From assembly GCA_030265395.1 (NCBI GenBank), contig JARFYF010000002.1, positions 47,690,252 to 47,754,251 of the forward strand: a stretch of DNA of 64,000 bases. Reading direction: 5' to 3'. The position numbers were made by a program. This document shows positions 38,701-41,700 of the stretch, one piece after another (the first letter of the stretch is position 1; the number at the start of each line of letters is the position of its first letter). Source of the stretch: Rhina ancylostomus (lineage: Eukaryota).

Positions 38701-41700
38701 TTGTTAACTCATTTGTTTGCATATACCTCCCCAGCTTTCTTATCTTTACTTTTCATGTTTTATTAACCAGTTGCTTATTCAAGTTAGTGAGTGATATTTA
38801 TGAACATGATTAAGTAGAATTATCATTTTAACAGTACACATATTCATAACAATATAAGCATTTACCTCATTTGCAAATTGTACTCTTCATTTCTACTGCT
38901 AATTTCTGAAGAAAAGGCATAGGATTAAAGTTATGTAGCCAGAAATTGTTTTGGACTTACCTGCACATTTGGTTCTAGTGATGAGTGGGGGACCTGGTAA
39001 TCCTGTTCCTCCTTCACCTGGCCGTGTGAGCAAAACCCTGATTTCATATTCCGTATCTGGGTCCAGATGCCAGAGCTTGTAAGTTGCTGCATTTACAGCA
39101 TGGATTTCTGTCCAAGATCCACTGGTCATACAATATTCCACTTCCTTCAGAATGATGGGACCATCGCCAATGATTGAATTTGCATTAAGCTGGATTAGCA
39201 GATATGTCGGACCAACACCAAGTAGCTGGGGTGGTGCAATTGGCATGGGTGGCTCTATACAGGGAAGAAATGAGGGCCATTAATATTCAGCTTCAATTTC
39301 TAGTGCTAACTAGTATTTGTATAGTTGATGATTAGTATTTAAAAGACTGACATCTTAACTGAAAAGGACTAAACATCGGTTTTCAGATCAATGCCTATAA
39401 CATAGAAACATAGAAAAACTATGGCACAATTCAGGCCCTTCGGCCCACAAAGATGCGTTGAACATTCAAATGAATAATTAAATTTCTGGATTAAAACTGT
39501 TTAAAATATTAGCCACTCATCAAAACGTGCTCTCCTCCATACCAGAGGAACCAAATGCAAATTAGGTGAAAACTTAGCCAAACATCTCCTGTAGGGCAGG
39601 CACGTTAGTGTAGTCGTTAGTGTAATGCTTTACAGCACCAGTGACCCGGGTTCAATTCCAGCCACTGTCTGTAAGATGTTTGTACGTTCTCCCCGTGTGT
39701 GTGTGGGTTTCCTCCAGGTGCTCCAGTTTCCTCNNNNNNNNNNNNNNNNNNNNNNNNNNNNNNNNNNNNNNNNNNNNNNNNNNNNNNNNNNNNNNNNNNN
39801 NNNNNNNNNNNNNNNNNNNNNNNNNNNNNNNNNGAGGGATATGGGCATTCTGTAGGTAGGAGGGATTAGCTATGTTGGCACAACATTGTGGGCTGAAGGG
39901 CCTGTTCTGTACTGTTCTATGTACCTGTACTGAGATCAGCCATGAACGTATTGAATGGTGGAGCAGGCTCGAAGGGCCATTTGGCCCAACTCCTGCTTTA
40001 CTTTCTGTTTCTAAAGATAGTTCAATATCTGCAAAGCTTGGGCTGGTCTATAAAGGATGTTAAAGGCTCATTCGGGGAAGACTTTCTGCTATTTGGAATA
40101 TTGTGAGCAATTTTGGGTCCCATGTCTAAGGAAAGATGTGCTAGCACTATGGATGATGCAGGAGGGGTTCACAAGTGATCCTGGCAATGAAAAGCTTGAT
40201 ATGAGGATGGTTTGATGGCTCTGGGCTTGTACTTGATGTTCAGAAGGATGGGAGTGGAAATGGTGAAATTTCATTTGAAATCTACTGGATACTGAAAGGC
40301 TTGGATAGAGTGAATATAGAGAGGATGTTTCCAGTAGTGGGAAAGTCTCAGATCCAGGACCACAGCCTCAGAATAAAGGGACGTCCCCTTAGAACTGAGA
40401 TGAGGAATTTCTTCAGCTGGAGAGTGGTGAATCTGTGGAATTCATTGCCACAGAGGGCTGTGGAGGCCAAGTCATTGTGTGTATTAAGGCAGAGATTGAA
40501 AGGTTCTTGATTGGGAAGGGGACTATGGGGAGAAGGTAGGAGAATGGGATTGGAGAGGGGGGAAAAAGAATCAGCCATGATTGAATGTTGGAGGAGACTC
40601 GATGGGCTGAATGGCCTAATTCTGCTCCTATATCTTAATCTTTTGTTATCCCTGCCATTTTGGTCTAATTGTAACTGAGAGTTGAGGGCAACCTGTGGTA
40701 GATCTAACTCCATCGGGAACAGCCAGTTGCATCAAACTCACTGTCTTTTTACAGCAAGTTTGAACAGACAGTAAATGCTGAATCTGCCAGCAACCTCTTG
40801 CCCTGAGAACAACGTAAATGAGCCAGCCATACCTCTTTGCCAGTATAAGTGTGGCCCAATTGATCATCGTGTCTCCATCCGATCTGTCTCCTCAGCTGCC
40901 CACAAGTCGCCAGTTGCCAGGGAGGGTGAGCACGTTGTCAGTGTTACTGATCACGACAAGGAAATGGCCAAGCTGAAACTGGAGCTCGAGCAGAGCAAAC
41001 AGATCATCCAGGAGCAGCAGCAGGTTCTCCAGGTACAGGCCCTGGGTCGAGCAAATGTGGGATGTTACAGCCGAGGAGGACTTCTGTTGTGTCTGTGCCA
41101 GCCAACTAAATCCCATCTGGACCAGTCCTGCTTCCCAGCTGATGATATGTAACCCTGTAAACTGCATCACATCAAATCCTCATCCAGGTACCTTCTCAGG
41201 CAGAGTCACAGAGCCCCAACACCCTCTGGGTGAAGACTCTTCTCTTCAATCCATCTAGCAAAGTCAATCGATGCCCCCTAGTTGTTGGTTCTTCAGGAAT
41301 GGGTCTTCCTGTTTACCCTTAAGTTGTATATCTGGATTAAATCTCCCCTCAGCTTTTTCTGTTCCAGAGAAAACCTCATTCCCACCCAACGTTCATCACA
41401 AGTAAAGATTCTCCAGTCATGCCCAGATCCTTGTAAACTTTGTTGGGACAGGAACGGTAGTACAACGGTTAGTGTAACGCTATATCAGCATCAGTGACCC
41501 AGGTTCAATTCCGGCCACTATCTGTAAGGAGTTTGTACGTTCTTCCTGTGTCTGCGTGGGTTTCCTCTGGGTGCTCCAGTTTCCTCCCACATTCCAAAGA
41601 TGTACAGGTTAGGTAGTTGTGGGCATGCTATGTTGGTGCTGGAAGCGTGGTGACACTTGCGGGCAGCCTCCAGGACATTACGCAAAAGATGCATATCACT

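What the first reader, a model, noticed from the sequence alone, without database searches (positions are those of the whole stretch)
40645..41160. Orphan SSX2IP/ADIP-like exon with intact splice sites inside a PTPRK intron
Seen: a GC- and CpG-rich island of about 500 bp in otherwise CpG-depleted DNA. It contains a 137-bp stop-free exon (40896-41032) with AG/GT boundaries, antisense to PTPRK, and begins immediately after a same-strand CR1 3' tail. Known (recalled): the peptide is colinear with a coiled-coil segment of SSX2IP (DH..E..KL.LE..Q.K..I..QQQ.LQ). Intron-like flanks are retained, so it is not a processed pseudogene. Inference: a CR1 3' transduction or short DNA-level duplication from a GC-rich locus (exon-shuffling raw material), or less likely one exon of a nested antisense gene. 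Retained CpGs suggest recent origin or selection.
Basis: partly seen in the sequence, partly recalled or inferred. Interest (0 to 1): 0.7.

Follow-up and report, generated by a model that had tools for sequence, protein, structure and literature searches.

The report
Stray single exon of ADIP-like gene
A lone, intact-looking copy of one exon of a shark/ray centrosome-protein gene (an SSX2IP relative) sits among transposon debris next to a PTPRK exon; it is most likely a dead gene fragment and of modest interest.

Summary
The exon is real. Window 40896-41032 (+) is a 137-nt stop-free segment with AG before it and GT after it. Its 45-residue peptide matches only afadin- and alpha-actinin-binding protein-like proteins of sharks and rays. 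The best match is Pristis pectinata, 42 of 45 identical, E 1.3e-15. It belongs to the elasmobranch "ADIP-like" paralogue, not to SSX2IP proper, which matches at 15-17 of 45. Similarity stops exactly at the two splice signals, so it is not a processed pseudogene. No other ADIP exon is in the 64 kb. One PTPRK exon (38962-39255, minus strand) lies 1.6 kb away. The block is the GC-richest spot in the window, and exon GC3 is 0.73 against 0.37 for the PTPRK exon. Its CpG excess is weak (10 seen, 6 expected), so it is not a CpG island. My best reading is a recently copied, non-functional, unspliced gene fragment from a GC-rich locus. CR1 3' transduction is neither shown nor excluded and fits CR1 biology poorly. 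A main caveat is that the exon sits in a 6.9-kb gap-free piece between two 100-N runs. Its link to PTPRK therefore rests on scaffold joins, and it could be the real gene's exon misplaced. No shark or ray genome DNA was searchable, so the donor locus stayed unchecked.

The parts
40896..41032 (+). 137-nt exon copy of the elasmobranch ADIP-like (SSX2IP paralogue) gene. Codons run from 40898. It encodes 45 residues equivalent to Pristis ADIP-like residues 276-320. It enters in phase 1 and leaves in phase 0.
   Evidence: 42 of 45 residues identical to Pristis pectinata, E 1.3e-15. GC3 is 0.73.
40870..40895 (+). Pyrimidine-rich tract ending in the acceptor AG (40894-40895).
   Evidence: Read directly. 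Protein similarity to the eight ADIP-like proteins begins within two codons of this point.
41033..41038 (+). Donor-like GTACAG after an exon-final CAG.
   Evidence: Read directly. In all eight ADIP-like proteins the similarity ends at ...QQQ(V/L)L(Q/E), exactly here. An unnamed 86-residue prediction (P0246) from elsewhere also leaves the family at this point with a V codon.
40645..40895 (+). Upstream intron-like flank. It has no second copy in the window. GC is 0.46, with 4 CpGs.
   Evidence: No protein similarity.
41033..41444 (+). Downstream intron-like flank. It may hold a decayed CR1 ORF2 end on the minus strand near 41196-41312, supported only at motif level.
   Evidence: Not supported by the nhmmer profile or the protein HMM (E 0.22).
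40060..40644 (+). 5'-truncated CR1-type LINE 3' fragment (end of ORF2 plus tail), abutting the block.
   Evidence: motif FFSWRVVNLWNSLP; nhmmer 40400-40640, E 8.6e-6. The start near 40060-40085 is my reading of the sequence.
41445..41748 (+). Short interspersed repeat (SINE). Partial copies lie at 39590-39733, 22560-22704, 42974-43061 and 16987-17031. It ends in ATATCTTATCTTATAATC, which resembles the CR1 tail end ATATCTTAATC.
   Evidence: The 'tRNA-derived SINE' label is recalled; ARAGORN and Rfam found nothing.
41749..41767 (+). 19-nt imperfect direct repeat (16 of 19) of 40900-40918, placed right after the SINE tail. Meaning unknown.
38962..39255 (-). PTPRK exon (first fibronectin III domain, residues 282-379 of white-shark PTPRK). 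It is the only PTPRK exon seen in the window.
   Evidence: fn3, E 1.2e-5; 98 of 98 identical. GC3 is 0.37.
39734..39833 (.). 100-N run separating the piece with the PTPRK exon from the 6.9-kb gap-free piece (39834-46740) that holds the ADIP exon. The matching run is at 46741-46840. Neither was read or filled.

Best explanation
A solitary copy of one exon of the elasmobranch ADIP-like gene, with a few hundred bases of its own intron on each side. The parent is the second SSX2IP paralogue of sharks and rays. The copy sits in AT-rich, transposon-rich DNA beside a PTPRK exon, on the opposite strand.

I take it to be a non-functional gene fragment (a pseudo-exon). It was copied fairly recently from the parent gene, which lies in a GC-rich, small-chromosome setting.

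The copy was made from unspliced sequence, by one of two routes:
- As DNA, through a small templated insertion or the remnant of a duplication.
- By reverse transcription of an unspliced transcript by the CR1-type machinery, primed at a CR1-type tail. The same-strand SINE at 41445-41748 is the best candidate for that 3' end.
I rate the two routes as about equally likely.

Shown: the identity of the exon, its boundaries, the absence of other exons, and the compositional contrast. Inferred: non-function, recent arrival, and the route.
For: Identity of the exon:
- 8 of 12 candidates scored E <= 10, and all 8 are named ADIP or ADIP-like proteins of sharks and rays.
- The peptide shares 27-42 of 45 residues with 16 ADIP-like proteins, against 15-17 of 45 with six SSX2IP-type proteins.

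Boundaries:
- Similarity stops at the AG and the GT.
- In the search of 1.84 billion representatives with the whole 125-residue frame, 5 of the 7 hits cover only residues 35-89.

Solitary:
- tblastn of eight ADIP-like proteins gives one significant match each, all at this exon. The other 15 matches have E 0.011 to 9.8.
- The best of those lies in an ORF with a transposon-associated Pfam hit (ALKBH8_N).
- The complete Mustelus ADIP-like protein comes from a 55.7-kb contig. A whole gene could therefore fit in less than the 64 kb searched here.

Foreign composition within one gap-free piece:
- The exon region is the GC-richest of 551 windows.
- GC3 is 0.73 against 0.37 for the PTPRK exon 1.6 kb away (P = 6e-5).
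- The rest of the same piece, 41749-46740, has GC 0.36.
- Parent genes lie on sequences of 32 Mb or less in 10 of 14 species with chromosome-scale records.
- Shorter shark chromosomes have higher GC and shorter genes (abstract and passages of PMC10620051).

Little decay:
- There is no stop or frameshift.
- All three differences from Pristis sit at positions that vary among species, and each shows a residue seen in another species.
- All 14 alignment columns in the exon that are invariant across the window frame and the eight ADIP-like proteins are, by that definition, intact in the window copy.
Against: - The donor locus could not be examined. No shark or ray genome DNA was searchable, so 'copy' rather than 'the gene itself' is an inference.
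- The exon's piece (39834-46740) is joined to the PTPRK piece only across a 100-N run. A small misplaced contig from the real gene would look the same.
- The conservation pattern (changes only at variable sites) is also what a functional orthologous exon in a relative of Pristis would show.
- 1,816 bases of the window are N and could hide exons.
- No target-site duplication or terminal repeat bounding the block was found.
- The chromosome-size argument compares different species. PTPRK contig lengths were available only for Carcharodon (201.9 Mb) and Callorhinchus (99.1 Mb). Neither species has an ADIP-like entry in the part that was listed.
Confidence: 0.55

Rival explanations
1. It is the genuine, functional exon of this species' ADIP-like gene. 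The PTPRK neighbourhood is then either an assembly artefact (a 6.9-kb piece placed between two 100-N joins) or, less likely, a real overlap in which the ADIP-like gene runs antisense through PTPRK with very long introns.
For: - 100-N runs at 39734-39833 and 46741-46840 bracket the exon's piece. The PTPRK exon is in the next piece.
- The exon is intact, has usable splice signals, and differs from Pristis only at variable positions.
- One exon in 6.9 kb is compatible with a normal gene. The flanking introns would only need to exceed 1.06 kb and 5.7 kb.
Against: - Inside the same gap-free piece, GC falls to 0.36 for the 5 kb after the SINE. That does not fit a gene with GC3 of 0.73, because exon GC3 and intron GC usually track each other (established knowledge).
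- No neighbouring ADIP exon lies in the 5.7 kb downstream or anywhere else in the 64 kb, although the next exon is highly conserved in the family.
- A true overlap would put a PTPRK exon inside an ADIP-like intron.
Confidence: 0.25
2. A CR1 in the parent gene's intron was transcribed through its own end into the downstream intron and exon. The read-through RNA was then retrotransposed into PTPRK.
For: - The CR1 3' fragment (40060-40644) and the exon are on the same strand.
- The block starts at the CR1 tail.
Against: - CR1 3' ends are dense here. The profile finds ten at E < 0.001 in 64 kb, five of which were used to build it, so adjacency on the same strand is cheap.
- CR1 proteins are reported to recognise a particular sequence of their own RNA, which limits what can be carried along (passages of PMC5470649 citing Suh 2015). 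A read-through RNA would no longer end in that sequence (my inference).
- No target-site duplication was found. The upstream side runs into an N run.
Confidence: 0.08
3. A retro-copy primed from the SINE tail. The parent gene's unspliced transcript contained a sense-oriented SINE downstream of the exon. The CR1-type reverse transcriptase started at the SINE's tail and copied backwards through the intron, the exon and further upstream. This is a 5' transduction of host sequence by a SINE.
For: - The CR1 fragment, the exon and the SINE all lie on the + strand.
- The SINE ends in a tail resembling the CR1 tail.
- GC drops right after the SINE.
- A 16-of-19 direct repeat links the first bases after the SINE tail to the start of the exon.
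Against: - Shuffled sequence gives 0.33 repeats of that quality per region, so the repeat alone is not significant.
- It begins inside the exon, while ADIP similarity, the AG and the GC-rich stretch continue upstream of it. It therefore cannot be a simple target-site duplication.
- The SINE could have inserted later.
- No donor was available to check.
Confidence: 0.15
4. A functional exon of a new nested or antisense transcript, that is, an exonised fragment in use.
For: - The frame stays open for 125 codons.
- The splice signals are intact.
- No decay is seen at conserved residues.
Against: - No other coding exon, promoter-like CpG island or family hit appears on the + strand: 1 Pfam hit among 146 ORFs, and it is transposon-related.
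- The flanks of the open frame find no convincing relatives.
- Several other long open frames overlap the same GC-rich stretch on both strands, so openness reflects composition.
Confidence: 0.05

Closest known systems
Elasmobranch 'afadin- and alpha-actinin-binding protein-like' genes (second SSX2IP paralogue; named A-like, B-like or -like in NCBI records), e.g. Pristis pectinata isoform X2 (P0002)
   Same: The 45-residue segment is 42 of 45 identical to Pristis. It aligns to one coiled-coil stretch, residues 276-320.
   Different: Only this one exon is present. The N-terminal ADIP domain (PF11559) and all other coding parts are missing from the window.
SSX2IP / ADIP proper (ssx2ipa of sharks, coelacanth, mammals)
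   Same: Same family and same coiled-coil register.
   Different: Only 15-17 of 45 residues are identical. In sharks and rays this gene sits on large sequences, for example Pristis 144.7 Mb and Carcharodon 123.5 Mb. It is not the parent.
LINE-mediated transduction of flanking host sequence (L1 3' transduction; Goodier 2000 and Pickeral 2000 as cited in PMC5470649)
   Same: Host sequence lies directly downstream of a same-strand LINE 3' end.
   Different: The LINE here is CR1-type, which is reported to need its own RNA sequence. There is no poly(A), and no target-site duplication was found. The donor was not seen.
Templated sequence insertions and duplicated, non-processed gene fragments (recalled from general knowledge; no paper read here)
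   Same: A short, intron-bearing piece of a transcribed gene is found at an unrelated locus.
   Different: Junction microhomology and donor identity could not be tested.
Processed pseudogene
   Same: A stray piece of coding sequence away from its gene.
   Different: Intron-like flanks with AG and GT are retained, and the neighbouring exons are not fused on. It is not a member of this class.

Membership tests
SSX2IP/ADIP protein family | Significant sequence similarity to family members | tested here: met
   E 1.3e-15 to Pristis ADIP-like. All 8 scoring hits are ADIP or ADIP-like. Best representative hit E 5.9e-14.
SSX2IP/ADIP protein family | ADIP domain (Pfam PF11559) | tested here: not met
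   No PF11559 hit for the 45-residue peptide or the 125-residue frame, even at E <= 10. The fragment corresponds to a region C-terminal of that domain.
SSX2IP/ADIP protein family | A complete gene: the other coding exons nearby on the same strand | tested here: not met
   tblastn of eight full-length proteins finds only this exon. 146 plus-strand ORFs give no ADIP hit. The 1,816 N bases were not read.
Elasmobranch ADIP-like paralogue (as opposed to SSX2IP proper) | Closer to the ADIP-like clade than to the ssx2ipa clade | tested here: met
   27-42 of 45 identical to 16 ADIP-like proteins, against 15-17 of 45 to six ssx2ipa-type proteins.
Processed pseudogene | Contiguous cDNA-like similarity across exon junctions, with no intron signals | tested here: not met
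   Similarity ends at the AG and the GT. The residues that follow in the proteins (DQLAI...) are absent.
LINE 3' transduction | Same-strand LINE 3' end directly upstream of the carried sequence | tested here: met
   CR1 tail ends at about 40640-40644 on the + strand.
LINE 3' transduction | Target-site duplication bracketing LINE plus carried sequence | tested here: inconclusive
   None was found in 39834-42600. The upstream side ends in an N run. CR1-type insertions often lack such duplications (recalled).
LINE 3' transduction | Donor locus with the same LINE upstream of the same sequence | not testable with these tools
   No shark or ray genome collection was available.
CpG island | CpG observed/expected of about 0.6 or more with GC of about 0.5 or more over at least 200 bp (criteria recalled) | tested here: not met
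   GC is 0.50 but o/e is 0.31 in 40645-41160. 10 CpGs seen against 6.0 expected, P = 0.08.
Nested or antisense gene inside PTPRK | Lies within PTPRK on the opposite strand | tested here: inconclusive
   A PTPRK exon on the minus strand lies 1.6 kb away, but a 100-N join separates them. No second PTPRK exon is in the window to bracket the site.

The most novel reading that the evidence does not exclude
The block is an unspliced piece of a host gene that was mobilised by the stringent CR1/SINE retrotransposition machinery of a cartilaginous fish. Either it was primed from the tail of an intronic SINE, or it arose by CR1 read-through. It would be a concrete case of exon transduction by a LINE type thought to be almost unable to carry host sequence.
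Probability: 0.2. Interest if true: 0.5.

Novelty: new member of a known kind. Interest (0 to 1): 0.2.

Why it matters
Little, if it is a dead fragment. Stray intron-bearing gene pieces are a known by-product of duplication and repair. This one is antisense to its host gene and has mismatched phases, so it is poor material for exon shuffling.

It would matter more if the donor comparison showed that the CR1 fragment, the exon and the SINE moved as one RNA. That would bear on whether CR1-type elements can transduce host exons.

A useful by-product is that sharks and rays carry two SSX2IP paralogues. One lies mostly on large sequences and the other mostly on small ones.

The case also shows how a small scaffolded piece can create an apparent 'orphan exon'.

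Tried and rejected
- **Pfam on the peptide and the 125-residue frame.** No ADIP hit, only sub-threshold noise (YhfZ_C, MG280, FAM117). The first attempt used the wrong frame and was returned as an error.
- **Other ADIP exons.** tblastn of eight proteins gave nothing beyond this exon. The weak collinear match at 52995-53261 lies in an ORF with an ALKBH8_N hit, so I dropped it.
- **Other PTPRK exons.** Pfam on 231 minus-strand ORFs of at least 45 residues gave 4 hits at E <= 0.01. Only fn3 and RVT_1 passed Pfam's cut-off. tblastn with three PTPRK proteins found one exon.
- **A second, minus-strand CR1 end abutting the donor side (41160-41440).**
  - The motifs TTRGH...FTQRV lie in one frame, and a MAFFT alignment looked suggestive.
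  - Pairwise blastn found nothing. The nhmmer profile found nothing there. The protein HMM gave E 0.22.
  - I left it as unproven.
- **Terminal inverted repeats or target-site duplications around the block.** None was convincing. One 16-of-19 direct repeat remains unexplained.
- **Rfam and tRNA scans of 38000-44000.** Nothing found.
- **Literature.**
  - A search for SSX2IP with paralogue and shark terms found only the VTG-synteny paper, PMC10015161. I read its passages. Its SSX2IP tree is in a supplement that I could not see.
  - Searches on CR1 and transduction and on gene-fragment duplication gave no case like this one.
- **Spliced model.** The single exon was searched on its own.
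Full report
**What is in the sequence**

The window reads as cartilaginous-fish DNA. It has CR1-type LINE ends, a SINE family present in several copies, GC of 0.38 and CpG o/e of 0.185. It is not human.

It holds 13 N runs totalling 1,816 bases. I did not read or fill any of them.

At 40896-41032 on the + strand there is a 137-nt stretch in an open frame. It is preceded by a pyrimidine-rich run and AG (40894-40895) and followed by GT (41033-41034). 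The exon enters in phase 1 and leaves in phase 0. The open frame continues on both sides (40775-41152, 125 codons). Several other long open frames overlap the same GC-rich stretch on both strands, so this openness carries little weight.

**Identity of the exon**

Pfam finds no ADIP domain in the peptide.

The word-indexed search against 5.8 billion proteins scored 8 of 12 candidates at E <= 10. All eight are 'afadin- and alpha-actinin-binding protein(-like)' entries from sharks and rays. The best are:
- Pristis pectinata: 93% identity over the whole query, E 1.3e-15.
- Leucoraja erinacea: 87% identity.

A second search with the full Leucoraja protein showed that sharks and rays carry two paralogues:
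- An 'ADIP-like' clade: 16 listed entries, 53-100% identical to the query.
- 'ssx2ipa', about 40% identical.

The window peptide shares 27-42 of 45 residues with the 16 ADIP-like proteins. It shares only 15-17 of 45 with six ssx2ipa-type proteins. Rays are closest:

| Species | Identical residues of 45 |
|---|---|
| Pristis | 42 |
| Leucoraja | 39 |
| Mobula | 37 |
| Hemitrygon | 37 |
| Rhinoraja | 37 |
| Sharks | 28-33 |

The parent is the ADIP-like paralogue rather than SSX2IP proper.

An exhaustive HMMER search of 1.84 billion representatives with the whole 125-residue frame found 7 proteins at E <= 0.001. Five of them match only residues 35-89. The flanks of the frame therefore look non-coding.

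**Not a processed pseudogene, and alone**

In all eight ADIP-like proteins the similarity ends at ...QQQ(V/L)L(Q/E), which is the GT. It begins within two codons of the AG. The strongly conserved residues that follow in the proteins are absent.

tblastn of the eight proteins against the window gives one significant match each, all at this exon. The other 15 matches have E from 0.011 to 9.8. Pfam on 146 plus-strand ORFs of at least 55 residues gives a single hit, ALKBH8_N at 52854-53309. That hit explains the best of the weak matches.

The complete Mustelus ADIP-like protein comes from a contig of 55.7 kb. A whole gene of this family can therefore be shorter than the 64 kb searched.

**The PTPRK context**

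Pfam on 231 minus-strand ORFs found an fn3 hit at 38902-39279. That frame is PTPRK: 98 of 98 residues are identical to white-shark PTPRK residues 282-379, at 38962-39255. It is the only PTPRK exon visible in the window.

The ADIP exon lies 1.64 kb away on the opposite strand, on the 5' side in PTPRK sense.

An important caveat concerns the scaffold. 100-N runs at 39734-39833 and 46741-46840 bracket a gap-free 6.9-kb piece that holds the ADIP exon. The PTPRK exon is in the neighbouring piece. Unless those Ns are masks, the claim 'inside a PTPRK intron' rests on scaffold joins.

**Composition**

- The 500-bp windows at 40701 and 40801 are the GC-richest of 551 (0.51-0.52; median 0.37). The core is about 40834-41233.
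- The CpG excess is weak: 10 seen against 6.0 expected, P = 0.08, rank 49-75 of 551. This is not a CpG island.
- Exon GC3 is 0.73 (33 of 45 codons) against 0.37 (36 of 98) for the PTPRK exon, Fisher P = 6e-5.
- Within the same gap-free piece, GC is 0.36 over 41749-46740.
- ADIP-like genes lie on sequences of 32 Mb or less in 10 of 14 species with chromosome-scale records. The other four are 44.9, 64.5, 94.5 and 375.7 Mb. I set aside the 55.7-kb Mustelus contig and one entry with no contig length.
- PTPRK is on 201.9 Mb in Carcharodon and 99.1 Mb in Callorhinchus. No same-species pair was available.
- Shorter shark chromosomes have higher GC and shorter genes (abstract and passages of PMC10620051).

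Together these results point to a small GC-rich insert of foreign origin in AT-rich DNA.

**Surroundings and mechanism**

A 5'-truncated CR1 3' fragment on the + strand ends at about 40640-40644. A profile built from five other CR1 tails hits it at E 8.6e-6, and the ORF2-end motif is seen.

A + strand SINE occupies 41445-41748. Its tail resembles the CR1 tail. The CR1 fragment, the exon and the SINE are therefore co-oriented.

CR1 ends are common here, so adjacency is weak evidence. CR1 is also reported to depend on a sequence of its own RNA (passages of PMC5470649). That makes classic 3' transduction awkward.

A retro-copy primed at the SINE tail would fit that requirement better. A 16-of-19 direct repeat links the bases just after the SINE tail (41749-41767) to 40900-40918. 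However, shuffled sequence gives 0.33 such pairs per region. The repeat also starts inside the exon, so I leave it unexplained.

A possible decayed minus-strand CR1 end at 41196-41312 was not confirmed. No terminal repeats, tRNA or Rfam features were found.

**Verdict**

- **Best reading (0.55):** a recently copied, non-functional, unspliced fragment of the ADIP-like gene. The route is open between a DNA-level insertion and reverse transcription of an unspliced transcript.
- **Main rival (0.25):** the genuine exon of the real gene on a misplaced small piece.
- The conservation pattern fits either reading. All three differences from Pristis are at variable positions, and no column that is invariant among the eight ADIP-like proteins is changed.

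**What stayed unchecked**

- The donor locus, the orthologous introns and any transcripts. No shark or ray genome or RNA collection was available.
- The SSX2IP tree in the supplement of PMC10015161.

Noticed in passing
protein searches, (not a window feature): Sharks and rays carry two SSX2IP paralogues. 'ssx2ipa' lies on large sequences (104-323 Mb in the listed species). An 'ADIP-like' gene lies mostly on sequences of 12-32 Mb. Unnamed representatives P0243 and P0245 resemble the ADIP-like type, so it may be an old paralogue lost in tetrapods.
   Followed up: partly
window 40900-40918 and 41749-41767: A 16-of-19 direct repeat links the start of the exon to the first bases after the SINE tail. 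The pair alone is not significant (0.33 expected per region), but both ends sit on landmarks.
   Followed up: partly
window 39734-39833 and 46741-46840, plus three more 100-N runs (506-605, 6448-6547, 63497-63596): Five runs of exactly 100 N and eight of other lengths (10 to 451) suggest two levels of scaffolding. The exon's 6.9-kb piece is the smallest unit between 100-N runs.
   Followed up: partly
window 52854-53309 (+): A 152-residue open frame has a Pfam ALKBH8_N hit (E 1.9e-9, above the cut-off). It is probably part of a transposon ORF (my recollection). It lies in the second GC-richest part of the window.
   Followed up: no
window 35111-35413 (-): A reverse-transcriptase (RVT_1) fragment, E 2e-7. 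CR1 3' ends lie at 27666-28017, 29080-29441, 35837-36201 and 37438-37785 (+) and at 34203-34543 (-).
   Followed up: partly
window 22401-23000 and 33601-34500: These are the highest CpG o/e values in the window (0.66-0.76 and 0.52-0.66), well above the finding. The first lies next to an N run and a SINE copy (22560-22704).
   Followed up: no
P0246 (unnamed 86-residue prediction): A predicted protein from elsewhere contains the homologous exon and then leaves the family at the same point with a V codon, as if read into an intron. This hints that the exon boundary is conserved in the family.
   Followed up: partly
window 41196-41312 (-): The motifs TTRGH and FTQRV lie 16 codons apart in one frame, as at the end of CR1 ORF2. 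Profile searches do not support a CR1 here (E 0.22; no nhmmer hit).
   Followed up: yes
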